Source: Bacteroidota bacterium | GTDB taxonomy: Bacteria > Bacteroidota > Ignavibacteria > UBA10030 > UBA6906 | Length of the DNA: 64,000 bases | Direction: 5' to 3' | Assembly (NCBI GenBank): GCA_035516035.1 | Contig: DATJAS010000044.1 | Coordinates: 9,026 to 73,025, forward strand | Part shown: piece by piece, positions 42,124 through 57,832 of the stretch | How the letters are laid out: each line of letters starts with the position of its first letter | Numbering within the stretch: position 1 is the first letter of the stretch | Made by a program: the position numbers and the translations under genes | Notes under the pieces: generated by a model | What the model was told of the DNA's origin: nothing | Database searches by the model: none | Seen by the model: the letters and a program-made list of their open reading frames with translations, nothing else

Positions 42124-45696
<3,573 letters not shown>

Positions 45697-45922: not shown

Positions 45923-46981
45923 TCAGCCTGGCTCTTGCTGCGTCAGGCAGTGGAGTGTTCCGAAACCCCAGACAAGATCGACTGCATGTATGCCGACGAC
46001 CGGCCTGTCCTTGAAAAGCTCTGCAAGTATTCCGAGCGCGGTGCGGTCATTCACGTCGTTGAACGTCGGGACGATCACCGCGGCGTTCGTGATGTAGAAG
46101 TTCGCGTAGCTGGCGGGAATGCGCATCCCGTTGAAGAAGAGGGGTGCCGGCATCGGGAGCGGGACGACCTCAGGCCGGGAACCGTCTTCGAGTTGCATGC
46201 CGGAGAGCCTCTCCATGTTCTCGCTGAGTGGCGCGTGGTTTACGTCCGTCCGATTCGTCTCACGGCATGCGACGATCGTCCCGGCGTTGACGAACCGCGC
46301 GATGTCATCCACGTGCCCGTGCGTGTCGTCCCCCGCGATCCCATTGCCGAGCCAGAGTATGTTCTTCACGCCGAGTGAGTCGCGAAGCGCCTGCTCGATC
46401 TCCTGCCGGCTGTGTCCCGGGTTACGCGCCTGCGTCTTCTGGTCGAGAAGGCATTCTTCCGTGGTCAGGACTGTGCCGCGCCCGTTCACGTCGATCGATC
46501 CCCCTTCGAGGACGAACTGCGTCTCCCCGATTGCCGGCTTGAAGATCCTCAGTCCGAGGGCGGCGGCCGCGCGCGCATGGACTTTCGTGTCCTTCTGCCA
46601 GTCTGGGTATTTCGCCCAGGCGCTGAACCGGAAGTTCACGATCGCCTTCTCTCCCGCCGGGTTCCTGACGAACATCGGTCCCATGTCGCGCGTCCATCCC
46701 CGGTTTGTCGGGAACCGGAAGAACCTCACGCGCGAGACGTCCGCACCCGCCTTGTTCAGAACATTGCGCGCGGAGGATTCGTGCCTCGCGGATTCCACGA
46801 TGATCCGGAGCGATTCGCCGGCGGTGATCTTCTTTGCCATCTCGCCGAAGACCCAGGGGATGGCGGCGAACTTCCCCGGCCAGTCCGTCGTGTTGTGGGG
46901 CCAGCCGATCCATGTGGCCTCGTGGTGTTCCCACTCGGCGGGCATCATGAACCCGGTTGCGGAAGGGGTCTCCGCCGTCAC
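45923..46981 (-). CDS. aguA: agmatine deiminase
   Basis: MPAEWEHHEATWIGWPHN start region. Overall length and conserved blocks match the peptidyl-arginine-deiminase-like agmatine deiminase family. Confidence 0.8.
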   Translation of the reverse strand: MTAETPSATGFMMPAEWEHHEATWIGWPHNTTDWPGKFAAIPWVFGEMAKKITAGESLRIIVESARHESSARNVLNKAGADVSRVRFFRFPTNRGWTRDMGPMFVRNPAGEKAIVNFRFSAWAKYPDWQKDTKVHARAAAALGLRIFKPAIGETQFVLEGGSIDVNGRGTVLTTEECLLDQKTQARNPGHSRQEIEQALRDSLGVKNILWLGNGIAGDDTHGHVDDIARFVNAGTIVACRETNRTDVNHAPLSENMERLSGMQLEDGSRPEVVPLPMPAPLFFNGMRIPASYANFYITNAAVIVPTFNDVNDRTALGILAELFKDRPVVGIHAVDLVWGFGTLHCLTQQEPG

Positions 46982-47922
46982 GGCGATTTCTTCCAGGGCT
47001 CGTCCCCCAGGAACCTCTCTGTAATACCGCCGTATGCGTCGATCCGCCTGTCCCGCAGGAATGGCCAGTTCCGCCTGATATCTTCAAGCGTCCCTGTATC
47101 CACTTCGGCCACGAGCACGGCCTCCCTGTCAGTCGGTGCCTCGGCAAGCACCGCTCCCTGGGGATCGGCGATGAACGATGAGCCCCAGAACTCGATGCCG
47201 GCCCCCCCTCCGGGAGGGATTTCGTGACCCGTGCGGTTGACCGCCGCCACATAGACGCCGTTGGCCACGGCGTGTCCCCGCTGGACAGTCCGCCACGCAT
47301 CCCTCTGCCGCTCCCCCTGTTCCGCCTTCTCCGCGGGATGCCAGCCGATCGCCGTGGGGTAGAAGAGGACCTCAGCTCCCTGGAGCGCTGTGAGACGGGC
47401 TCCCTCGGGGTACCACTGATCCCAACAGATGAGCGTCCCCACGCGTCCGTGTGCCGTGTCGAATGCCTGGAACCCCAGGTCCCCGGGGGTGAAATAAAAC
47501 TTCTCGTAGTAGGCCGGGTCATCCGGGATGTGCATCTTCCTGTAGAGTCCGGCGATGCGGCCGTCGGCATCGACGACGACGGCGCTGTTGTGATAGACTC
47601 CCGCTGCCCGGCGCTCGAAGACGGGGGCGATAATAGCGGCATGGTGCGAGCGGGCGGCCTTTGCGATAGCTTCCGTGGTCGGCCCCGGCACGGCCTCCGC
47701 GAGGTCAAACGCGGCGGTCTCCTCCCTCTGGCAAAAGTACAGTGACCGGAAGAGTTCGGGAAGACAGATGATCCGTGCGCCGCGACGGGCGGCATCCGCA
47801 ATGCCGTCGAGCGCTCGCGCGAGGTTATCGGCCGGATCCTGGCCGACGGACATCTGGACGAGTCCGATTGTGTAACGGCGGGGCGGGGTTGGAGTGTTCA
47901 CCCGGCGAATATACCCGCCCAT
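46978..47922 (-). CDS. aguB: N-carbamoylputrescine amidase (carbon-nitrogen hydrolase family)
   Basis: Nitrilase-superfamily E-K-C layout with ICLPELF near the N-terminus. Overlaps aguA by 4 nt. Confidence 0.8.
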   Translation of the reverse strand: MGGYIRRVNTPTPPRRYTIGLVQMSVGQDPADNLARALDGIADAARRGARIICLPELFRSLYFCQREETAAFDLAEAVPGPTTEAIAKAARSHHAAIIAPVFERRAAGVYHNSAVVVDADGRIAGLYRKMHIPDDPAYYEKFYFTPGDLGFQAFDTAHGRVGTLICWDQWYPEGARLTALQGAEVLFYPTAIGWHPAEKAEQGERQRDAWRTVQRGHAVANGVYVAAVNRTGHEIPPGGGAGIEFWGSSFIADPQGAVLAEAPTDREAVLVAEVDTGTLEDIRRNWPFLRDRRIDAYGGITERFLGDEPWKKSP

Positions 47923-47981: not shown

Positions 47982-48494
47982 ATGCGAAGCGAGCGTCTCA
48001 CCCACGCAGTGATACTCGCCGGCGCGGCCCTCTGGTGCATGCTCATTCTCGCCGCTCCCCTTGCCACCGCGACGTCCGCCATGCCTTTCGGTGCGCTCGT
48101 GTACGCATTCTTCCAGCCTGTCTGCCACCAGATCGACGCCCGTTCGTTCCATCTATTTGGCGCTCCGCTGGCGGTCTGCGCCAGGTGCTCATCCATCTAT
48201 TTCGGCTTTCTCGCCGGTACGATCGTCTACCCGGCGTTCCGCGCCCGCATCCGGCGGCGAACGCCCGGCCGGCTCTTCCTGGCCGTTGCCGTGGCGCCGA
48301 TGGCTGTGGAGGTCATTGCCGAAATGGCCGGGCTCTCTGAATTCTCCAACGCCGTCCGCGCATTTACCGGGGCGTGGTTCGGACTCCTGATCACCGCCGT
48401 GATACTCCATGGCGCCGAGGAGGGCGCGGCGGAACTCTTCGTCCGGCGCCCTGTTCACTCGGTCCAACCAGAGAAAGGACTCGCCGATGCCTGA
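47982..48494 (+). CDS. DUF2085 family membrane protein
   Basis: Polytopic membrane protein carrying the CHQ...CARC cysteine pattern typical of DUF2085. Confidence 0.55.
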   Translation: MRSERLTHAVILAGAALWCMLILAAPLATATSAMPFGALVYAFFQPVCHQIDARSFHLFGAPLAVCARCSSIYFGFLAGTIVYPAFRARIRRRTPGRLFLAVAVAPMAVEVIAEMAGLSEFSNAVRAFTGAWFGLLITAVILHGAEEGAAELFVRRPVHSVQPEKGLADA

Positions 48495-49005
48495 AAAACC
48501 CGCAAAATTCCTCCCCGCTCTTTACGGCGGAATCATCATGGGCGTGCTCTCAGGTGTGCCCGGCCTGAGCCTTGTCAACTGCCTCTGCTGCGCGGGCATC
48601 ATGTTCGGCGGGTTCATGGCGGTATTCTTCTACAAGAAAGAGCTGCAGCCGTCGCATCCCCCTCTCACGAACGGCGATGCGCTCGGGCTCGGAGCGATTT
48701 CTGGCCTCATCGGCGCCGTGGTTACGACGCTGCTTAGCGCTCTCTTCACCCACCTCCTCGGATTCGCCATGGGGGGCGGGATGGAACGGCTTCGGAACAT
48801 GGGAGCGCTCAGCGACCAGATCCCCCCTGAAACGCTGAAGATGATCCAGAGCCTCACCAGCGGCGGCGCGCTTCTCGGCATCGGGTTTGTCTTCCACCTG
48901 GTGATCATGCCGCTCTTCGGCCTGCTCGGCGGCCTGATCGGGTACTCGGTCTTCAAGCCGAAAGCCCCGGCCGTCATGCCCCCGCCGCCGCCCCCGGCGC
49001 ACTGA
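48487..49005 (+). CDS. hypothetical membrane protein (172 aa)
   Basis: Start MPEKPAKFLPALYGGIIMGVLSGVPG. Several TM helices. Overlaps the upstream gene by 8 nt. Confidence 0.5.
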   Translation: MPEKPAKFLPALYGGIIMGVLSGVPGLSLVNCLCCAGIMFGGFMAVFFYKKELQPSHPPLTNGDALGLGAISGLIGAVVTTLLSALFTHLLGFAMGGGMERLRNMGALSDQIPPETLKMIQSLTSGGALLGIGFVFHLVIMPLFGLLGGLIGYSVFKPKAPAVMPPPPPPAH

Positions 49006-49036: not shown

Positions 49037-50335
49037 ATGGCTGCCCAGGACGCACCAGGCGCTGGTGGACTTTCCCCGCAGGAGGAAAACCGCCGTCTCA
49101 AGAGGGCCGTCGAGGAGCTGTCGATCCTGAACGACCTCGCCCGCGCCATCGGGGCATCGGTGAACCTGCAGGATATCATGCGGACGATCATCCACCGGTC
49201 GATCCGCGCCATCCGGGCGGAACAGGGGGTGATCACGCTGGTCGACCACCGCGCGCAGGACGTGATGAAGACGCTCGTGCGCACGATGGCCAGCTCCTCC
49301 CAGTCGCCGCAGTACCACTTCAGCCAGAGCCTCCTCGGCTGGATGCACCTGAACAAGAAGCCGCTGATGCTCAACGACCCCCGCACGGACGAGCGGTTCC
49401 GCGGCGTCCAGTGGGACGAGTCGATCCGCTCGCTCCTGTGCGTGCCGATGATGGTCAAATCGACGCTCATCGGCGTCCTGACGGTGTACAACAAGCGTGA
49501 GGAGGGCGCGTTCACGGACGAGGACCAGCGACTCCTGGCGATCATCGCCGGCCAGTCTGCGCAGATCGTCGAGAACGCGCGCCTCTACGAGGAAGAGCAG
49601 GCGCTTCAGCGGATGAAGGAGGAGGTCCGGCTCGCCGCGACCATACAGATGGATCTCCTCCCGAAGGCCCCTCCCGACGTCCCCGGGTACGATATCGCGG
49701 GGGTGAGCATCCCTGCCCAGCTCGTCGGCGGCGATGCGTTCGATTTCATTCCGATCGACGCCACGCACATCGCCGTCACGCTTGCGGACGTGTCGGGGAA
49801 AGGACTTCCAGCGTCGCTCCTGATGGCCAACGTCCAGGCGACGCTCCGCGGGCAGACTCTCGGCGGGCCCGGTGCTTCAGTCTGCGTGCAGCGCGCGAAC
49901 AAGCTCCTCTTCCAGAGCACGAGCCCCGACAAGTTTGTTACGCTCTTCTACAGCGTGCTTGACGCCGGGGCCCACACGCTGACCTACTGTAATGCGGGGC
50001 ACGACCACCCGTTCCACTTTTCCGGCCCCGGGTCGCCGAAGAGGCTGGAGACAGGGGGCCTCGTGGTCAGCATCGTGGAGGATTTTCCCTACCAGGAGGA
50101 CACCGTGTCGCTCGCCCCGGGCGACGTGGTCGTTGTCTACTCCGACGGGATCACGGAGGCGGTGGATCCCCTGGCCGCGCAGTTCGGGGACGTGAACATC
50201 GAGTCCGTCGTCGTCGCCAGCCGCACGCTCGGCGCCGCCGGCATCATCGACGCCATCGTGGGTGCGGTGCGGCACCACGCCGACACCGCCGCGCAGGCGG
50301 ACGACATGACCATCGTGGTTATCAAGCGGCTGTAA
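49037..50335 (+). CDS. GAF-domain PP2C (RsbU/SpoIIE-like) phosphatase
   Basis: N-terminal GAF domain and C-terminal PP2C with GGDAFDF and VYSDGITEA. Confidence 0.8.
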   Translation: MAAQDAPGAGGLSPQEENRRLKRAVEELSILNDLARAIGASVNLQDIMRTIIHRSIRAIRAEQGVITLVDHRAQDVMKTLVRTMASSSQSPQYHFSQSLLGWMHLNKKPLMLNDPRTDERFRGVQWDESIRSLLCVPMMVKSTLIGVLTVYNKREEGAFTDEDQRLLAIIAGQSAQIVENARLYEEEQALQRMKEEVRLAATIQMDLLPKAPPDVPGYDIAGVSIPAQLVGGDAFDFIPIDATHIAVTLADVSGKGLPASLLMANVQATLRGQTLGGPGASVCVQRANKLLFQSTSPDKFVTLFYSVLDAGAHTLTYCNAGHDHPFHFSGPGSPKRLETGGLVVSIVEDFPYQEDTVSLAPGDVVVVYSDGITEAVDPLAAQFGDVNIESVVVASRTLGAAGIIDAIVGAVRHHADTAAQADDMTIVVIKRL

Positions 50336-50375
50336 CGGAGGGAGGACCGGCAATCGGGATGACACTCACGGGTCG

Positions 50376-50789
50376 GTGCCGTTGATGCGCCGGGAGTTTG
50401 CCAGGGAGATGGCGTCGCTGGATGCGGTGTTCGACTTTCTGCACCGCTTCGCAGGAGAGGAACGTCTCGACCCGCAGGCGTCCTACGCGCTGGATTTGGC
50501 CGTGGAGGAGTTCTTCACGAACATCGTGAAGTACGGCAAGGGAAACGGGGGGAGCATCGTCGTCGAAGCCGTTCGCTCGGGGGGCACGGTGACCGTCCGC
50601 CTGGAAGAGGAGACTCCCGTTCCGTTCGACGTCACGCGGCAGACCGCGACCCAGTTCGACACCCCGTTTGCCGAGCGACGGCCCGGCGGCCTGGGCATCC
50701 ACATTGCCCGGGAGATGCTCGACGGCCTGGCGTACGACTACGTCGACGGCACGAGCCGGATCACACTGACCAAACACCTGGAGCCGTAG
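50376..50789 (+). CDS. anti-sigma regulatory factor, RsbW/SpoIIAB-like Ser/Thr kinase (HATPase_c)
   Basis: LAVEEFFTNIVKYG N-box and GGLGIHIAREMLD G-box. Length is 137 aa. Confidence 0.75.
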   Translation: MPLMRREFAREMASLDAVFDFLHRFAGEERLDPQASYALDLAVEEFFTNIVKYGKGNGGSIVVEAVRSGGTVTVRLEEETPVPFDVTRQTATQFDTPFAERRPGGLGIHIAREMLDGLAYDYVDGTSRITLTKHLEP

Positions 50790-50790
50790 C

Positions 50791-51075
50791 ATGTTCAGCA
50801 TTGCAGTCAACGACGAGGGGATCGTCGTCCTGACAGGGAGGTTCGACGCGTCGCAGTCGGACAGGGCGCGGGAGGTGTTCGCGGTACTGAAGGAATCGGC
50901 AGTCGTGGATTTCCGGGATCTGGACTACATTTCAAGCGCGGGATTGGGTGTGCTCCTCGCCACACAGCAGCGGCTGAAAAAGGAGGGGAAGGCGATCAAG
51001 CTCGTGCACATGAACCGGATGGTGCGGGATGTCTTCAAAATCGCTCGTTTTGACTTGATTTTTGAAATAGAATAG
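50791..51075 (+). CDS. STAS-domain anti-sigma-factor antagonist (RsbV/SpoIIAA-like)
   Basis: 94 aa, with LDYISSAGLGVLL containing the phosphorylatable Ser context. Confidence 0.75.
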   Translation: MFSIAVNDEGIVVLTGRFDASQSDRAREVFAVLKESAVVDFRDLDYISSAGLGVLLATQQRLKKEGKAIKLVHMNRMVRDVFKIARFDLIFEIE

Positions 51076-51090
51076 AGCCAACATTTGTGA

Positions 51091-51669
51091 TTGCGGACGG
51101 TATTTATGACAGAGCCGAGTGACGAAGATCTCGTCCGGCAGTGCCGGGCGGGGGAACTGAAGGCGTTTGACATGCTCGTGGCAAGGCACCAGAGGACGGT
51201 ATACAATCTGGCCCTCCGGATGGTGCGAAGCGGAGACGACGCCGCGGATATCGCTCAGACGGTGTTCGTTAAGGCGTATGAGAACCTCGAGCGATTCGAT
51301 CCCCAGTACAAGTTCTTCAGCTGGCTCTACCGCATCGCCGTGAACGAATCGCTGAACGCGGTGGAGCAGAAGAAGCGGTTCGAGGGGCTGGACGGCGTGG
51401 ATGTCGCGGTCGAAGCCGCCGAGGAGAAGGACGATGAGACACTCAGGCAGGAGGAGAGGATACAGTCGGGATTGATGCTCCTCAGCGTCGACCAGCGGGC
51501 GGTGATCGTGCTCAAACACATGCAGGGGCTTTCATACAGGGAAATCGCACAGGTGCTCGATCTCCCTGAAAAGACGGTGAAGTCGCGCCTCTTCAGCGCG
51601 CGGCAGGCGTTCAAGGATATACTGAAGCGGAAAGGACGGCGACGGAATGACCGCAGAAGAGCTTCGTGA
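51091..51669 (+). CDS. RNA polymerase sigma factor, ECF subfamily
   Basis: Region 2 (DIAQTVFVKAYENLERFD, FFSWLYRIAVN) and region 4 (LKHMQGLSYREIAQVLDLPEKTVKSRL). Confidence 0.85.
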   Translation: MRTVFMTEPSDEDLVRQCRAGELKAFDMLVARHQRTVYNLALRMVRSGDDAADIAQTVFVKAYENLERFDPQYKFFSWLYRIAVNESLNAVEQKKRFEGLDGVDVAVEAAEEKDDETLRQEERIQSGLMLLSVDQRAVIVLKHMQGLSYREIAQVLDLPEKTVKSRLFSARQAFKDILKRKGRRRNDRRRAS

Positions 51670-52426
51670 ACTGATCAACCGGGAGATCGACGGCGATCTC
51701 TCCCCGTCGGAAAAGCGCAGGCTCGCGCAGGCGACGCGCCGCAACCCACAGGCGCGCCGGCTCCAGGCGGAGCTGAAGCAAGTCCACACCGCGCTTGCCT
51801 CCGTCCGCGCCGTCGAACCCCCTTCGCACCTCGCCGGGAGGATCAGCGCTGAGGTGCGCGCCCGCGCTGCCGCTTCGGCGTCAGCGTCCGCCCATGCCCG
51901 GGAAGCCGTTGAGCGCCGCGCGTCCTGGCTGGGATCCCTCGGCGGCGTGGTGTTCGGGAAGTCGATGGTCCGCTACGGCACAGTGTTCGCCGGCGGGCTG
52001 GTGGTGGGAGCTCTTGCATTCATGCTTCTTGCGCACCCCGAACCCGCCCCGTCAGTCCCGGGCAACTCTGCCATGGGGACGCTCCTTGCCCAGTCGGAGT
52101 CGTTCCCGGTCAACGTGCCGGGGGCGCAGGGAACTGTGACGGCCGTCCCCACGGAGACGGGGAAGGAACTGACGCTCCGTTTGATCTGCTCATCCGCCAC
52201 GACGACGCGGCTTGTATACGACCCGTCGAGGGTGAAGCTCGAGAACCTGAGCGAGCTCCAGTCCGCAGGGGGCCCGGTCGCCGTCAACAACGGTGTCGTG
52301 GAAATCTCCGGGACAGGGGCGCAGAAATGCACGCTCCTCTTCTCGGGCGTCAAGGATTCGAAGCTCTCCGTCCAGATTGCATCCACCGCTGGAGGTTCAT
52401 TCCATGCGGAGGTCCAGGTTCACTGA
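51647..52426 (+). CDS. putative anti-sigma factor (single-pass membrane, Cys-less N-terminal domain)
   Basis: Overlaps the sigma gene by 23 nt. Cytoplasmic N-domain ELINREIDGDLSPSEKRRL, one TM (VFAGGLVVGALAFMLLA), then a periplasmic C-domain. Confidence 0.55.
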   Translation: MTAEELRELINREIDGDLSPSEKRRLAQATRRNPQARRLQAELKQVHTALASVRAVEPPSHLAGRISAEVRARAAASASASAHAREAVERRASWLGSLGGVVFGKSMVRYGTVFAGGLVVGALAFMLLAHPEPAPSVPGNSAMGTLLAQSESFPVNVPGAQGTVTAVPTETGKELTLRLICSSATTTRLVYDPSRVKLENLSELQSAGGPVAVNNGVVEISGTGAQKCTLLFSGVKDSKLSVQIASTAGGSFHAEVQVH

Positions 52427-52468
52427 AGTGAGGTCCAGGTTCCCCGAATTGTGGTCCAGGTTCACTGA
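52411..52468 (+). repeat. three direct repeats of ggtccaggttc(a/c)c(t/c)ga with 21-nt phasing
   Basis: Copies at 52411-52426, 52432-52447 and 52453-52468. The first contains the anti-sigma stop codon. They lie 50-110 nt upstream of the nonapeptide-repeat gene. Confidence 0.6.
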
Positions 52469-52517: not shown

Positions 52518-53654
52518 ATGGAAACCGCTCCGGTAACACAACCCAGGAAGAGCCGCCGCCCGCTCTGGATTGGTCTCGGCGTCGTTGCAGCATGTTTCGT
52601 GGTGTACATCCTCGTCCACGGGTGGCCCCCTGTGGACAACGCCGGCGGAACGATCGGGGCAGCGAAGAAATACCGTTCAGGTCAGATGACCGAGAACGAC
52701 GTCCGGCTGCAGAACCCCGAGATCCAGAAGATTCTGCAGAACGACAAGATCCAGGCAATTATCAACAACGACGGCTTCAAGTCCGCGCTCGCCAGTCCGG
52801 CGTTCACGGCGGCAATGACGAGCCCGGCGTTCACGGCGGCGCTTGCGACCCCCCGGCTCGCGTCCGCTCTTGCACAGCCGGGTCTCGCTGCCGCCCTCGC
52901 AACGCCCGGGATGGCTGCAGCGATGTCTTCGCCTGCGTTCACAGCCGCGATGGCCGTGCCGCAGCTGACGTCTGCGATGGCCTACCCGGCGTTCACCGCC
53001 GCGATGGCCTCGCCGGCGTTCACGGCGGCGCTTGCGCAACCGGCCTTTACCGCCGCGCTGGCGCAGGGGAACATGACCGCCGCGCTGAAGGCGGCGGGTA
53101 TGACTTCACCGGCCATGACGGCCGCGATGACGTCCGCCAGTTTAGCGCCTGCGGCAATGACCGCACAGCTTACGGCGGCGCTCCAGTCGCCCGCCCTCGC
53201 TGCGGCCCTGAAGTCACCGGGACTCGCAGCGGCGCTGAAGTCTCCTGAGCTGTCGGCCGCGATGCAGAGTCCGGCGCTCCAGTCGGCGCTCACGGCCCCC
53301 GCGATGGAGGCTGCTCTCGCGAGCCCGGCGCTCCAGTCCGCGCTCAGCGCTCCGGCGCTCCAGGCGTCGCTTCAGAGCCCGGCGCTTCAGTCAGCCCTAA
53401 AGTCTCCGGAGCTCCAGTCTGCGCTGAAGTCGCCTGAGCTCACTGCGGCACTCCAGACTCCCGCGCTTCAGGCGGCGCTGCAGTCGCCCGGGCTCACCGC
53501 GGCTCTCCAGAGCCCCGCGCTCCAGGCCGCGCTCCAGACTCCCGCACTGCAGGCTGCTCTCACGAGCCCCGAGCTGAAGGCTGCCCTTGCCAGCCCGGCG
53601 TTCACGTCAGCCCTCACCAGCGGGGCGTTCGGAGCCGCCGCCCAGCAGCAGTAA
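52518..53654 (+). CDS. membrane-anchored protein with ~38 tandem nonapeptide repeats (x-[ST]-P-[AEG]-[LF]-[QTK]-[AS]-A-[LM])
   Basis: N-terminal TM LWIGLGVVAACFVVYILV. The rest is almost entirely SPAFTAALA / SPALQSALK repeats, with a 27-nt degenerate DNA periodicity. Confidence 0.55.
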   Translation: METAPVTQPRKSRRPLWIGLGVVAACFVVYILVHGWPPVDNAGGTIGAAKKYRSGQMTENDVRLQNPEIQKILQNDKIQAIINNDGFKSALASPAFTAAMTSPAFTAALATPRLASALAQPGLAAALATPGMAAAMSSPAFTAAMAVPQLTSAMAYPAFTAAMASPAFTAALAQPAFTAALAQGNMTAALKAAGMTSPAMTAAMTSASLAPAAMTAQLTAALQSPALAAALKSPGLAAALKSPELSAAMQSPALQSALTAPAMEAALASPALQSALSAPALQASLQSPALQSALKSPELQSALKSPELTAALQTPALQAALQSPGLTAALQSPALQAALQTPALQAALTSPELKAALASPAFTSALTSGAFGAAAQQQ

Positions 53655-53708: not shown

Positions 53709-53837
53709 GTCATTGCGAGCGGCGCCGCAGGCGCCGCGAAGCAATCCACCCCCCCCGTCATTGCGAGCGTTTTCCGCGAAGCGCGTTCTTTGCGTCACGC
53801 CGCCTGTGGCGCCGCAGGCGCCAATTTTTGGCGTGAC
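53709..53837. repeat. two copies of the 'gtcattgcgag...gaagcaatcc' intergenic repeat plus a GC palindrome
   Basis: Units begin at 53709 and 53757. They are followed by an inverted repeat gtcacgcc...ggcgtgac around a ggcgcc-gca-ggcgcc palindrome. Confidence 0.7.
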
Positions 53838-53892: not shown

Positions 53893-56823
53893 TTGCGCAA
53901 GTTCCTCATAGCCTGTGCGATCGCCGGGCTCGCGCCGTCGTTTTCCCGGGCGCAGCTCTTTGACCGGGAAACCGCGCATTTGCGCCTCGTCTACTACTCG
54001 AAGGCCCACGAGTATCTCGTCCCCCACATCGTGAGCTGCTTCGAGAACGCCTATCGGTTTGAGCATAAGCTTTTCGACTACACCCCGTCGGAACGGGTCA
54101 GCGTCCTGATGCAGGATTTCGGGGACTACGCCTCGGGTGCCGCAAACACCGTCCCGTTCAACGTCATGAACATCGGCATCGCCCCGTTCAGCTACGTCTA
54201 TGAGACGATGCCCGCCGAAGAGCGGTTCAACCTGATGATGATGCACGAGATGGTCCACATCGTCACAATGGACAAGGCATCGTCACAGGACGCGTTCTTC
54301 CGGTCGTTGTTCTGCGGGAAGGTCGCGCCGATCCCGGAGCAACCCCTCTCGATGATCTACGGCTACCTCACGGGCCCCCGCTGGTATGCGCCGCGCTGGT
54401 ACGTCGAGTCCATTGCCGTCTTCATGGAGACGTGGATGGCGGGGGGGCTCGGGCGCGCGCTGGGGGCCTACGACGAGATGGTCTTCCGGACGATGGTGCG
54501 CGACTCGAGCTACATGTACGACATGGTGGGCCTGGAGGCGGAGGGGACGAAGGTGGATTTCCAGGTCGGCGCGGCGTCGTACCTCTACGGGACGCGATTT
54601 GTGAGCTACCTGGCACTGCGCTACGGTCCTGACGCGCTGCTCCGGTGGTTCATCCAGACGCGGGGAAGCGACGCAGGGTTCGCTGCGCAATTCGAGGATG
54701 TCTACCACACATCGCTGGACGACGAGTGGGGGGCCTGGATCGCGTGGGAGCATCGATGGCAGCAGGCCAACCTCGACTCGGTCCGCCGATACCCCGTGAC
54801 CGTCTGCCGGCCCGTGACGCCCGGCGCGGTCGGGTCCGTCTCCCGCTCATTTTATGACCCCATCGCACGGAGAGTCTATGTCGCGGTGAACTACCCCGGC
54901 CAGACGCCGCACATCGCGTCGCTCGACACACGCACGGGTGCCGTGGAGAACCTTCGCGAGGTGAGGGGGGGAGCCCTCTTCTACGTGACGTCCCTGGCGT
55001 TCGATCCGGCGGGCCGCACGCTGTTTTATACGGCGGACAACAATCACTGGCGCGATCTCTACGCGTACGACATCCCCTCGGGCTCGACGCGCCTCCTGAT
55101 CAAGGACGTGCGCACTGGCGATTTCGCGTTCAACAGGAAGGACCGCTCGCTCTGGGGCGTCCGCCATTTCAACGGGATATCGACGCTCGTGCGCATCCCC
55201 GCTCCCTACACGGAGTGGAACCAGGTCTTCTCGTTCGACTACGGGAAGGACATCTTCGACATCGACATCTCCCCCGACGGCGAGTCGCTTGTCGGCGCGC
55301 TCACGCACGTGGACGGGCGTCAGTTCCTGGTCAGGATGAAGACCGCCGCGCTGCTCTCGGGTAACCCGGCGTGCGACACGCTCTACGATTTCGTCAACAG
55401 CACGCCCGCCAATTTCGTCTTCTCGGAAGATGGCGCACGCCTCTATGGCAGCTCGTTCTACAGCGGCGTCTCGAATGTGGTCCGGTACGATATCGCCGCG
55501 AAAAGAATGGACTGGGTGACAAACACCGAGACGGGCCTCTTCCGGCCCCTCCCGATGGCCGGGGACTCCCTCCTGGCGTTTCATTTCACCGGGAGGGGCT
55601 TTCAGCCGGTGATGATCGCCGACAGGACCGTCACGGACGTGAGCCCGATCAGCTACCTCGGCCAGGCAGTCGTCGACAGCTTCCCCGTGCTCAGGACATG
55701 GGCGCTCCCCCCGCCGTCGGTGGTCAATCCCGATTCGGTGACGATCGCTTCCGGAGAATACCGCCCCGCAGATCACATCCGGCCCGCGTCGCTCTACCCG
55801 GTGGTTGAAGGATACAAGGTCTATCCGGCGTACGGCTTACGGTTTAACCTCTCCGACCCCCTCTCCCTTCACCGCATCGATGCGACCGCTTCGTATACGC
55901 CGAACCGGACTGTGCCGGGCGGCGAGCGGCTCCACGCGGCGTTTCACTACGACTTCTGGGAGTGGGGAGTGAACGGGAGCTACAACGGGGGGGACTTCTA
56001 CGACCTCTTCGGTCCGACGCGCCTGAGCCGGAAAGGGTCCTCCCTCGGAACGACGTACAGGGACTACTGGACGTTCGAAGACCCTGAGAAGCTTGAATTC
56101 TCTGCCGCGCTGCAGGGATACTGGGGGCTGCAGAACCTGCCCGAATACCAGAACGTGCTCGCCCCGTTTGCCACGCTCTATTCGCTCAACGCCTCTGTGA
56201 ACTACTCGCTGATGACGCGATCGCTCGGAGCGGTTGAGGAGGAGAGCGGGTACGCCTGGGAGATCGCCTCGATGAACGGGTACGTGAACGGCACGGCGTA
56301 CCCCCGCGTCTACGGGACGCTCGCCCTGGGCACGCTCCTCCCCCTGGATCATTCATCCGTCTGGCTCCGTGCCGCCACCGGCTGGTCGCCGGGCAAGAGG
56401 GAGGACCCGTTCGCGAATTTCTATTTCGGCGCATTCGGGAATAACTGGGTCGACCACGGAGATTTCCGGCGCTACCGCGAGTACTATGCCTTCCCGGGCG
56501 CCTCGCTCAACTCGATCGGCGGGACGAATTTCGGCAAGGCTCTGGTGGAATGGGTGATCTCTCCCGTGAGGTTCAGGCGGTTCGGCGGCGAGTCCTTCTA
56601 CTGCACATGGGTGCAGCTCGTGCTCTTCGGGGGAGGGGTTACGACCAACATGGACGCGCCGTCGCTTGGACAGACGGTGGTCGACGCCGGTGCGCAGGCC
56701 GACTTCCGCCTTGTGCTCTTCTCCGCGCTCGAGTCGACGTTCTCCCTGGGCTGGGCGGCGGCCGCCGAGAAGGATGAGCGGCTGACGCGTGAGTTCATGG
56801 CCTCCCTGAAGATCCTGCGCTGA
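53893..56823 (+). CDS. large secreted protein with N-terminal HExxH (putative zinc peptidase, MA-clan-like) region and TolB-like beta-propeller
   Basis: Signal peptide MRKFLIACAIAGLAPSFSRAQ. HEMVH at about residue 115. The middle region has propeller-like repeats (DxSPDG..., FSEDGARLYG). Length is 976 aa. Confidence 0.45.
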   Translation: MRKFLIACAIAGLAPSFSRAQLFDRETAHLRLVYYSKAHEYLVPHIVSCFENAYRFEHKLFDYTPSERVSVLMQDFGDYASGAANTVPFNVMNIGIAPFSYVYETMPAEERFNLMMMHEMVHIVTMDKASSQDAFFRSLFCGKVAPIPEQPLSMIYGYLTGPRWYAPRWYVESIAVFMETWMAGGLGRALGAYDEMVFRTMVRDSSYMYDMVGLEAEGTKVDFQVGAASYLYGTRFVSYLALRYGPDALLRWFIQTRGSDAGFAAQFEDVYHTSLDDEWGAWIAWEHRWQQANLDSVRRYPVTVCRPVTPGAVGSVSRSFYDPIARRVYVAVNYPGQTPHIASLDTRTGAVENLREVRGGALFYVTSLAFDPAGRTLFYTADNNHWRDLYAYDIPSGSTRLLIKDVRTGDFAFNRKDRSLWGVRHFNGISTLVRIPAPYTEWNQVFSFDYGKDIFDIDISPDGESLVGALTHVDGRQFLVRMKTAALLSGNPACDTLYDFVNSTPANFVFSEDGARLYGSSFYSGVSNVVRYDIAAKRMDWVTNTETGLFRPLPMAGDSLLAFHFTGRGFQPVMIADRTVTDVSPISYLGQAVVDSFPVLRTWALPPPSVVNPDSVTIASGEYRPADHIRPASLYPVVEGYKVYPAYGLRFNLSDPLSLHRIDATASYTPNRTVPGGERLHAAFHYDFWEWGVNGSYNGGDFYDLFGPTRLSRKGSSLGTTYRDYWTFEDPEKLEFSAALQGYWGLQNLPEYQNVLAPFATLYSLNASVNYSLMTRSLGAVEEESGYAWEIASMNGYVNGTAYPRVYGTLALGTLLPLDHSSVWLRAATGWSPGKREDPFANFYFGAFGNNWVDHGDFRRYREYYAFPGASLNSIGGTNFGKALVEWVISPVRFRRFGGESFYCTWVQLVLFGGGVTTNMDAPSLGQTVVDAGAQADFRLVLFSALESTFSLGWAAAAEKDERLTREFMASLKILR

Positions 56824-56842: not shown

Positions 56843-57832
56843 ATGGAGTTTCTCCTCGGCCTCGTTCCCGTCTGCGTGTTCCTGGGAGCCCTCTTCCTCT
56901 TCGACAGCTACAAGCTCGCGCCGCCCCGGGCGGTCTTTGTCGCGATGGCCGCCGGCGGCGTTGCCGCGGGCATCGCCTATCCCCTCAACGCGCTCCTGAT
57001 GAGCTCCACCGGCATCGGGATCGCTTCGTTCACACGCTACGTTGCGCCGTTCGTCGAGGAATCTCTTAAGGCTGCGTTCCTTGTCTACATACTCGCCACG
57101 CGCCGGACCGGGTTCCTCGTTGATACAGCCATCGAAGGGTTTGCAATCGGCGCCGGGTTTTCCCTCGTGGAGAACATCTCCTATGTCGCCTCGCTCGGTT
57201 CGCACAGCGCGCTCCTCTGGCTTGTGAGGGGCTTCGGCACTGCGATGATGCACGGCGCCGCCACGAGCATTGCCGGGATCGTGGGGAAGGTCATGTCCGA
57301 CCGCGCCGGCGGGGCGGGTGTGGCCACGCTCCTCCCGGGGGTGTTCCTTGCGATCGTCATTCACTCGGCATTCAATCACTTCTTTATCCCGGCGGTGGCG
57401 ACGACGATGCTGATCGTGCTGCTGCTGCCGATCCTGATGTCAATTGTCTTCGCCCGGAGCGAGGACGCCACGCGCCGGTGGCTCGGCGTCGGCTTCGATA
57501 CCGACCGGGACCTGCTGGAAATGATCTCCAGCGGGGGCGTCGCCGGGACGCGTATCGGGCAATACCTCCACGCGCTCCAGACGCGCTTCCCTGGCGAGAT
57601 ACTTGCCGATATGCTCTGCGTGCTCCGCCTGCGGCTGGAGCTTTCCGTGCAGGCCAAGGGTCTGCTCCTGATGCGCGAAGCGGGCTTCGAAATCCCTCCG
57701 GATACTGAGGTCAAGGCGAAGTTCGACGAATTGCACTACCTGCGCAAGTCCATTGGTCCCACCGGCATGCTTGTCCTGCAGCCGTTTCTCCACACCTCGG
57801 AAGAGCAACTCGCGCGGATTTTACGCGTATAA
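56843..57832 (+). CDS. prsW: PrsW-family intramembrane glutamic protease
   Basis: Conserved PrsW motifs EESLKAAF (EExxK), FSLVENISY (FxxxE) and HGAATSIAG (HxxxxA) in a polytopic membrane protein. Confidence 0.65.
   Translation: MEFLLGLVPVCVFLGALFLFDSYKLAPPRAVFVAMAAGGVAAGIAYPLNALLMSSTGIGIASFTRYVAPFVEESLKAAFLVYILATRRTGFLVDTAIEGFAIGAGFSLVENISYVASLGSHSALLWLVRGFGTAMMHGAATSIAGIVGKVMSDRAGGAGVATLLPGVFLAIVIHSAFNHFFIPAVATTMLIVLLLPILMSIVFARSEDATRRWLGVGFDTDRDLLEMISSGGVAGTRIGQYLHALQTRFPGEILADMLCVLRLRLELSVQAKGLLLMREAGFEIPPDTEVKAKFDELHYLRKSIGPTGMLVLQPFLHTSEEQLARILRV

What the first reader, a model, noticed from the sequence alone, without database searches (positions are those of the whole stretch)
49037..52426. 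Partner-switching module (GAF-PP2C, RsbW kinase, STAS antagonist) directly upstream of an ECF sigma / Cys-less anti-sigma pair
Five co-directional tightly spaced genes combine an RsbU-RsbW-RsbV-type partner-switching cassette with an ECF sigma factor and a membrane anti-sigma that lacks the usual zinc-binding Cys/His. Coupling a serine phosphatase/kinase switch to an ECF sigma (not a sigB-type sigma) recalls the ECF/partner-switching hybrids described in a few lineages. The anti-sigma overlaps the sigma gene by 23 nt. A second GAF-PP2C paralogue sits at 17291-18523.
Basis: partly seen in the sequence, partly recalled or inferred. Interest (0 to 1): 0.6.

Follow-up and report, generated by a model that had tools for sequence, protein, structure and literature searches.

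The report
Phospho-switch genes wired to an ECF sigma
The five genes are real and form the regulatory half of an eight-gene cluster found across Ignavibacteria, other Bacteroidota and KSB1 bacteria, in which a serine phosphatase/kinase/STAS switch is kept beside an RpoE-like ECF sigma factor, its membrane anti-sigma and a PrsW protease; this wiring was not described in the papers I could search.

Summary
Window 49037-52426 encodes GAF-SpoIIE phosphatase, an RsbW/SpoIIAB-like GHKL protein, a STAS protein with the phospho-serine, an RpoE/SigW-like ECF sigma and a one-pass class-I anti-sigma without the zinc motif. The sigma and anti-sigma genes overlap by 23 nt.

The cluster continues downstream with an Ala-rich repeat membrane protein, a 976-aa predicted outer-membrane protein (HExxH domain, TolB-like propeller, beta-barrel) and a PrsW protease.

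- **Linkage:** among 51 assessable loci fetched by anchoring on the 976-aa gene, 41 keep both RsbW-like and STAS genes and 46 keep STAS. The module sits co-directional, divergent or downstream of PrsW.
- **Promoter:** an ECF-type motif, CCAACnTT-N14-GTAnTT, abuts the sigma start codon (window 51078-51105). It recurs only in front of the repeat-protein gene or the anti-sigma gene, never in front of the switch genes.

So sigma and membrane anti-sigma are autoregulated together and the switch is not. I infer a cytoplasmic second input, most likely through STAS, added to PrsW-type proteolysis of the anti-sigma. Direct binding of sigma by the RsbW-like protein remains a live rival. Nothing here is biochemically tested. 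I rate it a new variant of known kinds, of moderate to high interest.

The parts
49037..50335 (+). GAF-SpoIIE (PP2C) serine phosphatase, 432 aa; presumed STAS-P phosphatase and cytoplasmic sensor
   Evidence: Pfam GAF_2 1.5e-18 and SpoIIE 1e-41. A full-length orthologue lies immediately upstream of the RsbW-like gene in 20 loci, downstream of PrsW in 9 and nearby in 3.
50385..50789 (+). RsbW/SpoIIAB-like GHKL protein (presumed STAS serine kinase), 134 aa (137 aa if it starts at GTG 50376)
   Evidence: HATPase_c_2 5.4e-16. A family profile hits B. subtilis RsbW 6M36 at 8.2e-08 and SpoIIAB at about 1e-4. The N-box EEFFTN and the G2 GGLG are invariant. The G1 Asp is Glu in the window clade and Asp in distant loci, and there are no DxGxG glycines.
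50791..51075 (+). Single-domain STAS protein (anti-sigma antagonist type), 94 aa, with the phosphorylatable Ser in YISSAGLG
   Evidence: STAS_2 6.4e-12 and TIGR00377 1.6e-14. It aligns to RsbV, SpoIIAA and TM1442 with Ser at the phospho-site. The motif is invariant in 21 loci. It is the least diverged regulatory gene, with mean Kimura distance 0.66.
51078..51105 (+). ECF-type promoter-like motif CCAACATT-N14-GTATTT that abuts the sigma ATG
   Evidence: It is the only match in the 64-kb window, even with 1 mismatch allowed, against 0.09 expected. There are 73 strict matches in 2.48 Mb of related loci: 50 abut the ECF start and the other 23 are all inside the cluster on the coding strand. The ATG is at offset 0 or 1 in 40 of 50.
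51106..51669 (+). RpoE/AlgU/SigW-like ECF sigma factor, 187 aa
   Evidence: Sigma70_r2 and r4_2. TIGR02937 scores 103 bits, above its cutoff, but no NCBIfam equivalog reaches its cutoff. The closest solved relatives are E. coli sigmaE 1OR7 at 3.6e-27, 6IN7, and SigW 5WUQ at 8.6e-23.
51647..52426 (+). Single-pass membrane anti-sigma, 259 aa: N-terminal class-I anti-sigma domain without zinc ligands, a TM helix at about 113-129, and an extracytoplasmic beta-sandwich at 151-258
   Evidence: NCBIfam anti-sigmaE 2.8e-9 over residues 4-87 and zf-HC2 at 0.0071, below cutoff. AF2 gives helices 3-15, 20-32, 34-54 and 61-95, TM 113-129, and a beta domain with pLDDT about 87. Foldseek returns only generic Ig/cohesin-like folds. 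The gene overlaps the sigma gene by 23 nt.
52518..53654 (+). Gene X: membrane-anchored Ala/Pro-rich protein built of 9-aa (27-nt) repeats; inferred ECF-regulon target
   Evidence: Tandem 27/54-nt repeats. No Pfam family above cutoff. In 19 related loci the ECF motif lies between the anti-sigma gene and this gene, and in 2 loci it precedes a relocated copy. In the window the gene has no motif of its own, so it is presumably co-transcribed with the sigma and anti-sigma genes.
53801..53820 (+). Terminator-like hairpin followed by a T-run after gene X
   Evidence: Consensus scan: 8-pair stem with 6 GC pairs, then ATTTTTG. This is a consensus match only.
53893..56823 (+). 976-aa predicted outer-membrane protein: signal peptide, HExxH alpha/beta domain, TolB-like beta-propeller, C-terminal beta-barrel
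   Evidence: No Pfam or NCBIfam hit. More than 5,500 homologue clusters. H118, E119 and H122 are invariant in 58 sequences. AF2 gives pLDDT 85.5 and pTM 0.83. TolB is the top Foldseek match at about 1e-9. The gene is present in every related locus.
56843..57832 (+). PrsW-family intramembrane metalloprotease, 329 aa; candidate site-1 protease of the anti-sigma
   Evidence: PF13367 2.4e-18, 66.8 bits against a cutoff of 23.5. It is found directly after the 976-aa gene in nearly all loci that have downstream flank.

Best explanation
**What is shown**
- The five genes are the regulatory part of a conserved cluster: [GAF-PP2C] - RsbW-like kinase - STAS - RpoE-like ECF sigma - membrane class-I anti-sigma - Ala-rich repeat protein - outer-membrane HExxH/propeller/barrel protein - PrsW protease.
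- An ECF-type promoter motif sits between the STAS and sigma genes and again in front of the repeat-protein gene. It is never found in front of the switch genes.

**What is inferred**
- The sigma is held at the membrane by its co-expressed anti-sigma.
- It is released by regulated proteolysis, with the linked PrsW as site-1 protease. The outer-membrane protein is possibly the envelope sensor.
- Free sigma then raises its own, the anti-sigma's and the repeat protein's expression.
- The phosphatase/kinase/STAS module is a separately transcribed cytoplasmic input. The RsbW-like protein phosphorylates the STAS serine, and the GAF-PP2C removes the phosphate when its GAF domain senses a cytoplasmic ligand.
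- The unphosphorylated STAS protein is the effector. It loosens the sigma/anti-sigma complex by binding the cytoplasmic anti-sigma domain or the complex, as HsbA does with FlgM.
- The kinase acts mainly as the STAS kinase rather than as the stoichiometric sigma trap.

**Likelihoods**
- That the switch acts on this sigma system at all: about 0.7.
- The STAS-as-effector step specifically: about 0.4.
For: **Linkage**
- All 22 loci found with an RsbW-like profile keep RsbW-STAS-ECF-anti-sigma-(X)-976aa-PrsW, down to 34% RsbW identity.
- In loci anchored on the 976-aa gene, 41 of 51 assessable loci have both RsbW and STAS, and 46 have STAS. Every locus with at least 2.4 kb of upstream flank has the ECF and anti-sigma genes.
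- The module keeps its link while changing position: five loci have it divergent from the sigma gene, one has it after PrsW, and the GAF-PP2C lies upstream of RsbW in 20 loci or downstream of PrsW in 9.
- The cluster spans 31-65% GC and includes a KSB1 MAG.

**Promoter**
- All 73 strict motif matches in 2.48 Mb lie in the cluster on the coding strand: 50 abut the sigma start, 19 lie between the anti-sigma gene and gene X, 4 lie between the ECF and anti-sigma genes, and none precede RsbW, STAS or PP2C.
- The sigmaB paradigm (own knowledge) puts the autoregulated promoter upstream of rsbV-rsbW so that anti-sigma scales with sigma. Here only the membrane anti-sigma scales with sigma.

**STAS as the constrained component**
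- It has the lowest divergence of the regulators: 0.66, against 1.15 for RsbW.
- The phospho-Ser motif is invariant.
- STAS is retained next to the sigma gene in three loci with no detectable RsbW (L067, L072, L076). The reverse case is never seen in a locus that is not truncated.

**Precedents**
- Unphosphorylated HsbA (STAS) binds the non-kinase anti-sigma FlgM (PMC6482189).
- PrsW and then RasP cleave RsiW (PMC6713349).

**Sigma family**
- The closest solved relatives are sigmaE, AlgU and SigW, all controlled by proteolysis of their anti-sigma.
Against: - No interaction was tested and no complex could be modelled.
- Gene-order and promoter arguments are indirect. The PSM genes could be expressed at a high constitutive level, which would remove the stoichiometry objection.
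- By homology the kinase's nearest solved relatives are true anti-sigmas.
- Three STAS-only loci are few, and the kinase could be encoded elsewhere in those genomes.
- The window clade has Glu instead of the G1-box Asp, so kinase activity is itself uncertain.
- The mirror-tree test failed its positive controls.
- That the motif is a promoter, and is used by this sigma, is inferred from its position and its AAC/GTA shape. Its geometry is odd: the -10-like block touches the ATG.
- Four loci lack the switch altogether, and three of them carry histidine kinases upstream of the sigma gene instead. The sigma system therefore works without it.
Confidence: 0.4

Rival explanations
1. Classical partner switch with an ECF as the client. 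The RsbW-like protein is a second, soluble anti-sigma that binds the ECF sigma directly. Unphosphorylated STAS displaces it. The sigma is therefore active only when both the membrane anti-sigma is destroyed and the PP2C is active, which makes an AND gate.
For: - The profile of the family hits B. subtilis RsbW (8.2e-08) and SpoIIAB (about 1e-4), both sigma-binding kinases.
- All three partner-switch parts are present with the phospho-Ser.
- The module sits next to a sigma gene, as in the sigB and spoIIA operons, and this is conserved in 41 of 51 loci.
- The RsbW-ECF partial correlation was the highest pair at 0.36, though the positive controls failed.
- Bacteroidota generally lack sigmaB/sigmaF-type sigmas (own knowledge), so the ECF is the obvious client.
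Against: - The autoregulated motif lies downstream of RsbW and STAS, so the kinase would not scale with induced sigma.
- The sigma already has a translationally coupled class-I anti-sigma.
- ECFs lack region 3, a main SpoIIAB contact (own knowledge).
- STAS persists without RsbW in three loci.
- RsbW is far less conserved than STAS.
Confidence: 0.3
2. The switch has a non-sigma output. As in Bordetella BtrU/W/V, Vibrio SypE/SypA or Pseudomonas SiaABC, the STAS or kinase pair controls another protein of the cluster (PrsW, the 976-aa outer-membrane protein or the repeat protein) or an unlinked target. It is co-located with the sigma only because it serves the same envelope process.
For: - Many partner switches have non-sigma outputs (PMC7498569; PMC9239204).
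- The switch is separately transcribed, and in several loci it lies next to PrsW rather than next to the sigma gene (L100; PP2C downstream of PrsW in 9 loci).
- The 976-aa and PrsW genes are the most conserved parts of the cluster.
Against: - In most loci STAS is the gene immediately adjacent to the sigma promoter.
- PrsW and the 976-aa protein have little or no cytoplasmic mass for a soluble STAS or kinase to bind. This is an inference from the AF2 model and the Pfam description of PrsW as an intramembrane protease.
- No candidate enzyme output such as a diguanylate cyclase is conserved in the cluster.
Confidence: 0.2
3. Adjacency without function. The switch module and the ECF pair are neighbours by descent in one lineage and are not coupled.
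For: - Four of 51 assessable loci lack the module.
- The switch and the sigma unit appear to have separate promoters.
Against: - The link survives rearrangement, inversion and relocation of the module.
- It is kept across 31-65% GC and across Ignavibacteria, other Bacteroidota and KSB1. It is also kept when loci are fetched through an unrelated anchor gene.
Confidence: 0.05

Closest known systems
B. subtilis RsbU/RsbP-RsbW-RsbV-sigmaB and SpoIIE-SpoIIAB-SpoIIAA-sigmaF partner switches
   Same: - PP2C/SpoIIE phosphatase, GHKL HATPase_c_2 protein and single-domain STAS with the conserved serine.
- The genes lie next to a sigma gene.
   Different: - The sigma is an ECF (regions 2 and 4 only), not a group-3 sigma.
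- The gene order is kinase-STAS-sigma, not STAS-kinase-sigma.
- The autoregulated promoter is downstream of the switch genes.
- A separate membrane anti-sigma is present.
- The G1 box lacks glycines and has Glu for Asp in this clade.
B. subtilis sigmaW-RsiW-PrsW (and E. coli sigmaE-RseA, P. aeruginosa AlgU-MucA) regulated proteolysis
   Same: - RpoE/SigW-like ECF.
- Co-transcribed single-pass class-I anti-sigma.
- A PrsW-family protease.
- A promoter motif with AAC, a 17-nt gap and GTA, like the sigmaW consensus TGAAAC-N16-CGTA (own knowledge).
   Different: - The anti-sigma has no zinc motif, whereas RsiW does (own knowledge).
- PrsW is encoded in the same cluster, after a large outer-membrane protein.
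- A phospho-switch module is attached.
- The -10-like block abuts the start codon.
Bordetella btr locus (ECF BtrS, anti-sigma BtrA, partner switchers BtrU/BtrW/BtrV)
   Same: An ECF sigma gene and a PP2C/kinase/STAS trio lie in one locus (PMC7498569).
   Different: - In Bordetella the switch governs type III secretion and none of the three acts as a negative regulator of BtrS.
- The locus is interleaved with unrelated genes.
- The anti-sigma is a secreted protein.
- Here there is no secretion system, and STAS directly abuts the sigma promoter.
P. aeruginosa HsbR-HsbA-FlgM-FliA
   Same: A STAS protein whose phosphorylation state decides whether it binds a non-kinase anti-sigma and frees the sigma (PMC6482189). 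This is the proposed logic here.
   Different: - In Pseudomonas the kinase and phosphatase are domains of one response regulator.
- The sigma is FliA (group 3) and the anti-sigma is soluble FlgM.
- No interaction has been shown here.
Alphaproteobacterial EcfG-NepR-PhyR (ECF15)
   Same: An ECF sigma freed by a phosphorylation-controlled anti-anti-sigma that titrates the anti-sigma (PMC7826278).
   Different: - PhyR is a sigma-mimic fused to a receiver domain and is phosphorylated on Asp by histidine kinases.
- Here the candidate antagonist is a STAS protein phosphorylated on Ser by a GHKL kinase.
- NepR is soluble, whereas this anti-sigma is membrane-bound.

Membership tests
RsbW/RsbV-type partner-switching module | PP2C/SpoIIE-family phosphatase encoded with the pair | tested here: met
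   SpoIIE 1e-41 over profile positions 3-191 of 192. An orthologue is linked to the cluster in 32 loci.
RsbW/RsbV-type partner-switching module | GHKL (HATPase_c_2) serine kinase with intact N, G1 and G2 boxes | tested here: inconclusive
   HATPase_c_2 5.4e-16 and RsbW 6M36 at 8.2e-08. The N-box E/N and the G2 GGLG are invariant. The G1 Asp is Glu in the window clade and Asp in distant loci, and the DxGxG glycines are absent throughout.
RsbW/RsbV-type partner-switching module | Single-domain STAS antagonist with a phosphorylatable Ser at the RsbV S56 / SpoIIAA S58 position | tested here: met
   TIGR00377 scores 53.7 bits against a cutoff of 53.45. The alignment to RsbV, SpoIIAA and TM1442 places the second Ser of YISSAGLG at the phospho-site. 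The motif is invariant in 21 loci.
RsbW/RsbV-type partner-switching module | The kinase sequesters a sigma factor and releases it on binding the unphosphorylated antagonist | not testable with these tools
   No complex prediction or binding assay was available. The mirror-tree analysis was uninformative because its positive controls failed.
RsbW/RsbV-type partner-switching module | Client sigma is a group-3 (sigmaB/sigmaF-type) sigma, co-transcribed and autoregulated with the switch genes | tested here: not met
   The only sigma nearby is an ECF with regions r2 and r4 only. The ECF-type motif lies downstream of the RsbW and STAS genes in all loci.
ECF sigma / class-I anti-sigma pair | Sigma with regions 2 and 4 only, about 190 aa | tested here: met
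   Sigma70_r2 at residues 29-96 and r4_2 at 123-173. TIGR02937 scores 103 bits against a cutoff of 42.9.
ECF sigma / class-I anti-sigma pair | Downstream, co-transcribed protein with an N-terminal four-helix anti-sigma domain | tested here: met
   23-nt overlap with the sigma gene. NCBIfam anti-sigmaE 2.8e-9 over residues 4-87. AF2 gives helices 3-15, 20-32, 34-54 and 61-95 with pLDDT about 65-76. The sequence hits are below the curated cutoffs.
ECF sigma / class-I anti-sigma pair | Zinc-binding HxxxCxxC (ZAS subgroup) | tested here: not met
   There is no Cys in residues 1-110. The corresponding stretch reads RRNPQARRL (sequence). The zf-HC2 hit is 0.0071, below cutoff, and covers only the first 24 profile positions.
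ECF sigma / class-I anti-sigma pair | Assignment to a numbered ECF group by the ECF Hub group HMMs | not testable with these tools
   The ECF group HMMs are not available here. No NCBIfam equivalog reaches its cutoff; the best is PRK12518 at 121 bits against 208. The supplement of PMC7826278 is not held.
sigmaW-RsiW-PrsW regulated proteolysis | A PrsW-family membrane protease acting as site-1 protease on the anti-sigma | tested here: inconclusive
   The PrsW-family gene is present and is conserved in the cluster (PF13367 66.8 bits). Cleavage of the anti-sigma cannot be tested.
sigmaW-RsiW-PrsW regulated proteolysis | A site-2 protease (RasP/RseP) completing the cascade | not tested
   None is encoded in the cluster. 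The rest of the genome is not available.
Bordetella BtrS/BtrUWV system | The partner switch is embedded in, and controls, a type III secretion locus | tested here: not met
   No secretion-system genes flank the cluster in the window or in the related loci.
EcfG-NepR-PhyR (ECF15) | Anti-anti-sigma made of a sigma-like domain fused to a receiver domain | tested here: not met
   No such gene is in the cluster. The antagonist candidate is a 94-aa STAS protein.

The most novel reading that the evidence does not exclude
A serine-phosphorylation partner switch (GAF-PP2C, GHKL kinase, STAS) is a genuine direct regulator of an RpoE-like ECF sigma/anti-sigma pair. This would be a mode of ECF control absent from the ECF regulatory catalogues I could read. 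It would give a two-input device, combining envelope proteolysis through PrsW and an outer-membrane HExxH/TolB-propeller/barrel protein with a cytoplasmic GAF signal. The device is conserved in thousands of Ignavibacteria, other Bacteroidota and KSB1 genomes, and the sigma gene may be transcribed as a leaderless mRNA from its own promoter.
Probability: 0.55. Interest if true: 0.75.

Novelty: new variant of a known kind. Interest (0 to 1): 0.6.

Why it matters
- ECF sigma factors are the largest family of alternative sigmas, and their modes of control have been catalogued in detail. RsbW-type kinases were even used as a 'non-interacting' negative control against ECFs (PMC7406223).
- This cluster is conserved and widespread, with more than 5,500 homologue clusters of the anchor protein. 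It ties a STAS/GHKL/PP2C switch to an ECF/anti-sigma/PrsW system and would add a new regulatory layer.
- It offers a testable case of how a cell might combine a cytoplasmic signal with an envelope signal on one sigma.
- It also gives a first functional handle on three unannotated protein families of poorly cultured soil and sediment bacteria: the 976-aa outer-membrane protein, the Ala-rich repeat protein and this anti-sigma.
- It supplies a precise promoter motif that makes the regulon searchable.

Tried and rejected
- A single-sequence PDB search with the RsbW-like protein gave only chance ribosomal-protein hits. The family profile was needed to reach RsbW and SpoIIAB.
- A mirror-tree and partial-correlation test on 40 complete loci, meant to tell which proteins co-evolve, was uninformative. 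The positive controls (RsbW-STAS 0.11, ECF-anti-sigma 0.20) scored lower than the test pairs (RsbW-ECF 0.36, STAS-ECF 0.34).
- Foldseek of the anti-sigma model gave only generic Ig/cohesin-like beta-sandwiches, so no sensor function could be named.
- ECF group assignment was impossible. There are no ECF Hub HMMs here, and the supplement of the reclassification paper is not held.
- The main text of that paper does not contain RsbW, PrsW, phosphatase or HATPase.
- A literature search for the cluster itself found nothing relevant. The library holds open-access papers only, so absence is weak evidence.
- The sigma-70 consensus scan found nothing convincing for the sigma gene; its one hit, at 51178-51207, lies inside the ORF.
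- I considered and rejected the idea that the tiny ORF at 50359-50385 (MTLTGRCR, with its stop overlapping the ATG at 50385) is meaningful. Only the TGATG context is conserved in relatives.
- I considered DUF2085 and the 172-aa membrane protein upstream (47982-49005) as cluster members. They are syntenic only in close relatives, and 4-kb insertions separate them from the cluster in L004 and L006.

Full report
**1. The observation**

ORF listing shows five co-directional ORFs at 49037-50335, 50376-50789, 50791-51075, 51091-51669 and 51647-52426.

Pfam assigns the following:
- ORF 1: GAF (1.5e-18) plus SpoIIE/PP2C (1e-41).
- ORF 2: HATPase_c_2 (5.4e-16).
- ORF 3: STAS (6.4e-12).
- ORF 4: Sigma70 regions 2 and 4 (1.4e-18 and 6.8e-15).
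- ORF 5: no family.

NCBIfam adds the anti-sigma-antagonist superfamily for ORF 3, just above its cutoff. It adds the ECF superfamily for ORF 4, with no equivalog reaching its cutoff. For the first 87 residues of ORF 5 it gives weak anti-sigmaE hits.

The same sequence occurs in two other public assemblies. Gene callers there chose ATG 50385 and ATG 51106 as starts. The 23-nt sigma/anti-sigma overlap is real.

The anti-sigma has no Cys and no HxxxCxxC in its cytoplasmic part, but it has two Cys in the outer domain. The 'second GAF-PP2C' at 17291-18523 has a SpoIIE domain and no detectable GAF. My family HMMs found no other RsbW, STAS or ECF gene of this family in the window.

The source is a soil or fen metagenome bacterium labelled Bacteroidota. 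A T9SS sorting domain elsewhere in the window fits that label.

**2. The parts in detail**

*RsbW-like protein.*
- A profile of the family matches B. subtilis RsbW (6M36, 8.2e-08) and SpoIIAB (about 1e-4). A single-sequence search did not.
- Across 21 loci the N-box EEFFTN and the G2 box GGLG are invariant.
- The G1 aspartate is Asp in distant members and Glu in the window's clade. The DxGxG glycines are missing everywhere. Kinase competence is therefore likely but not certain.

*STAS protein.*
- It aligns to RsbV, SpoIIAA and TM1442 with a Ser at the phospho-site.
- Its YISSAGLG motif is invariant.

*Sigma factor.*
- Its nearest solved relatives are E. coli sigmaE, a 'sigma-H' chain that I take to be AlgU (6IN7), and SigW.

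*Anti-sigma.*
- The AF2 model (33 sequences, pLDDT 68.7) shows four N-terminal helices, one TM helix and a confident beta-sandwich at 151-258.
- The beta-sandwich matches only generic Ig/cohesin-like folds.

**3. The five genes are part of a larger conserved cluster**

*Anchoring on the RsbW-like protein.* A scan of one genome per species with the RsbW-like profile gave 23 loci.
- In 22 of them tblastn finds the order RsbW-STAS-ECF-anti-sigma-(repeat protein)-976-aa protein-PrsW, down to 34% RsbW identity.
- The GAF-PP2C is directly upstream only in the closer clade and in L017.

*Anchoring on the 976-aa protein.* I then anchored on a gene that is not part of the finding.
- Its family has more than 5,500 clusters and no annotation.
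- Three long contigs, including a candidate-division KSB1 MAG, show the same seven or eight genes.
- A metagenome scan returned 80 further loci.
- With HMMs built from the first set, every locus with at least 2.4 kb of upstream flank has the ECF and anti-sigma genes.

Counts for the 51 loci where the switch can be assessed:

| Switch genes found | Loci | Note |
|---|---|---|
| RsbW and STAS | 41 | |
| STAS only | 5 | two cut by the contig end |
| RsbW only | 1 | cut by the contig end |
| Neither | 4 | |

- The three uncut STAS-only loci have no detectable RsbW remnant. One of them has a Hanks-type kinase upstream of STAS.
- Three of the four switch-less loci have histidine kinases in front of the sigma gene instead.
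- The module moves within the cluster. It is divergently transcribed in L071, L080, L093, L096 and L103, and lies after PrsW in L100.
- Full-length GAF-SpoIIE orthologues lie directly upstream of RsbW in 20 loci and downstream of PrsW in 9.
- A link that survives inversion and relocation, 31-65% GC and several lineages is strong evidence for a shared function.

**4. A promoter motif defines the transcription units**

- Aligning the upstream regions showed CCAAC(T/A)TT-N14-GTA(A/T/G)TT directly in front of the sigma start codon in every locus.
- In the window the motif is at 51078-51105 and fills the 30-nt gap after the STAS stop codon. It is the only match in 64 kb, against 0.09 expected.
- Across 106 loci (2.48 Mb counting both strands) the strict pattern occurs 73 times:

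| Position of the match | Count |
|---|---|
| Abutting the sigma gene | 50 |
| Between the anti-sigma gene and the repeat-protein gene | 19 |
| Between the ECF and anti-sigma genes | 4 |

- Two of the 19 are in L013 and L018, where the motif precedes a relocated repeat-protein gene downstream of PrsW.
- There are no matches on the other strand, outside the cluster, or upstream of RsbW, STAS, PP2C, the 976-aa gene or PrsW.
- Most loci that lack the strict pattern carry one-base variants at the same place.
- The shape is AAC, a 17-nt gap, then GTA. This is that of RpoE/SigW-type ECF promoters (own knowledge: sigmaW consensus TGAAAC-N16-CGTA). I therefore read it as the sigma's own promoter.
- In 40 of 50 cases the ATG follows the motif at offset 0 or 1. 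This strict spacing suggests a leaderless mRNA.
- By canonical geometry, however, the transcription start would fall about 7 nt past the A of the ATG. This is unresolved and needs transcript mapping.
- In close relatives the GAF-PP2C gene is preceded by TTTG ... TACTTTTG, which resembles the Bacteroidetes housekeeping promoter (own knowledge).
- A terminator-like hairpin follows the repeat-protein gene at 53801-53820.

The units therefore appear to be:
- (i) PP2C-RsbW-STAS, possibly reading through into the next unit;
- (ii) sigma, anti-sigma and repeat protein, autoregulated;
- (iii) the 976-aa protein and PrsW.

**5. Context genes**

- The 976-aa protein models confidently (pLDDT 85.5, pTM 0.83). 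It has a signal peptide, an alpha/beta domain with an invariant HExxH, a beta-propeller that matches TolB (about 1e-9), and a C-terminal beta-barrel.
- PrsW is a clear family member. In B. subtilis, PrsW and then RasP cleave RsiW to free SigW (PMC6713349).
- The repeat protein consists of about 30 copies of a 9-aa Ala/Pro-rich unit behind a membrane anchor.

**6. Mechanism**

*Shown.* The gene content, its conservation, the motif and its distribution.

*Inferred.*
- The sigma is held by its co-expressed membrane anti-sigma.
- It is freed by PrsW-initiated proteolysis after an envelope signal, perhaps sensed by the outer-membrane protein.
- It then induces itself, the anti-sigma and the repeat protein.

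*How the phospho-switch might act.* There are three possibilities.
- The classical reading is that the RsbW-like protein traps the sigma. Homology supports this.
- Against the classical reading, the autoregulated promoter excludes the kinase, so only the membrane anti-sigma scales with sigma.
- Also against it, STAS is much more conserved than the kinase (0.66 against 1.15).
- STAS is kept without the kinase in three loci.
- There is no reported RsbW-ECF interaction (PMC7406223).
- I therefore favour STAS as the effector. It would act on the anti-sigma or on the sigma/anti-sigma complex, as unphosphorylated HsbA acts on FlgM (PMC6482189).
- I rate this at about 0.4, the classical reading at 0.3, a non-sigma output at 0.2 and mere adjacency at 0.05.
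- The mirror-tree attempt to discriminate between these failed its controls.

**7. Comparison and novelty**

- All the parts belong to known families.
- The combination differs from the sigmaB/sigmaF switches in three ways: the client is an ECF, a separate anti-sigma is present, and the promoter sits downstream of the switch.
- It differs from sigmaW/RsiW/PrsW in having the added switch, no zinc motif and the outer-membrane partner.
- It differs from Bordetella Btr because there is no secretion system (PMC7498569).
- It differs from EcfG-NepR-PhyR because the antagonist is a STAS protein rather than a sigma mimic.
- I found no description of this cluster. The library holds open-access papers only, and the ECF Hub group contexts could not be checked.
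- Verdict: a new variant of known kinds, widespread, with a testable mechanism. Interest 0.6.

Noticed in passing
window 52409-52468: A 21-nt unit (GAGGTCCAGGTTCACTGAAGT) is repeated 2.9 times across the anti-sigma stop codon, so the last codons plus the stop (..VQVH*) are reiterated downstream. It is present in all three assemblies of this strain and absent from relatives at 85-87% identity (L029, L058).
   Followed up: partly
window 52518-53654: The gene after the anti-sigma encodes a membrane-anchored protein made of about 30 tandem 9-aa Ala/Pro-rich units (SPAFTAAL / SPALQSAL, 27-nt period). Only its first 65 or so residues are conserved in distant loci. A strongly conserved CACCATCCCCCCCAGGAGG-N5-7-ATG (AGGAGG Shine-Dalgarno) precedes it.
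   Followed up: partly
window 53893-56823: A 976-aa protein family with more than 5,500 homologue clusters and no Pfam or NCBIfam model. The confident AF2 model shows an HExxH domain, a TolB-like propeller and a C-terminal beta-barrel. H118, E119 and H122 are invariant. It is always followed by a PrsW protease gene.
   Followed up: partly
window 51078-51108 and the same position in about 70 loci: The -10-like block of the ECF motif touches the sigma ATG (offset 0 or 1 in 40 of 50 loci). In L036 and L037 the start codon position reads ATA instead of ATG. This implies either a leaderless mRNA or an unusual promoter geometry.
   Followed up: partly
window 17291-18523 (- strand): An orphan SpoIIE/PP2C phosphatase, 28% identical to the cluster's phosphatase over the catalytic half. 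Its 216-aa N-terminal region has no Pfam match. Its neighbours are a T9SS-sorted glucose/sorbosone dehydrogenase and a DUF1684 protein, with no STAS or kinase nearby.
   Followed up: partly
L053 3178-6801, L055 2195-7009, L059 1665-3296: In a sub-lineage without RsbW and STAS, the gene directly upstream of the ECF is a large histidine kinase (Reg_prop/Y_Y_Y-HisKA-HATPase, or GAF-HisKA-HATPase). In L055 it is fused to a receiver and an adenylate/guanylate cyclase domain. This may be a replacement of the cytoplasmic input module.
   Followed up: partly
L067 1244-3361; also L019, L024, L027, L028: Hanks-type Ser/Thr kinases with TPR repeats lie next to the cluster in several loci. In L067 one sits directly upstream of STAS, where the RsbW-like gene usually is.
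   Followed up: no
window 45923-47922 (- strand) and 42124-45696 (- strand): Agmatine deiminase, N-carbamoylputrescine amidase and a pyruvate:ferredoxin oxidoreductase lie upstream in conserved synteny in the closer relatives (L005, L006, L009-L011). DUF2085 and a 172-aa membrane protein (47982-49005) lie between them and the cluster. In L004 and L006 about 4 kb is inserted before the phosphatase gene.
   Followed up: no
L017 (JANMCS010000027.1): A MAG labelled Betaproteobacteria carries the whole cluster at 40-46% identity, including the motif. This is either a binning error or transfer of the cluster outside the FCB group.
   Followed up: no
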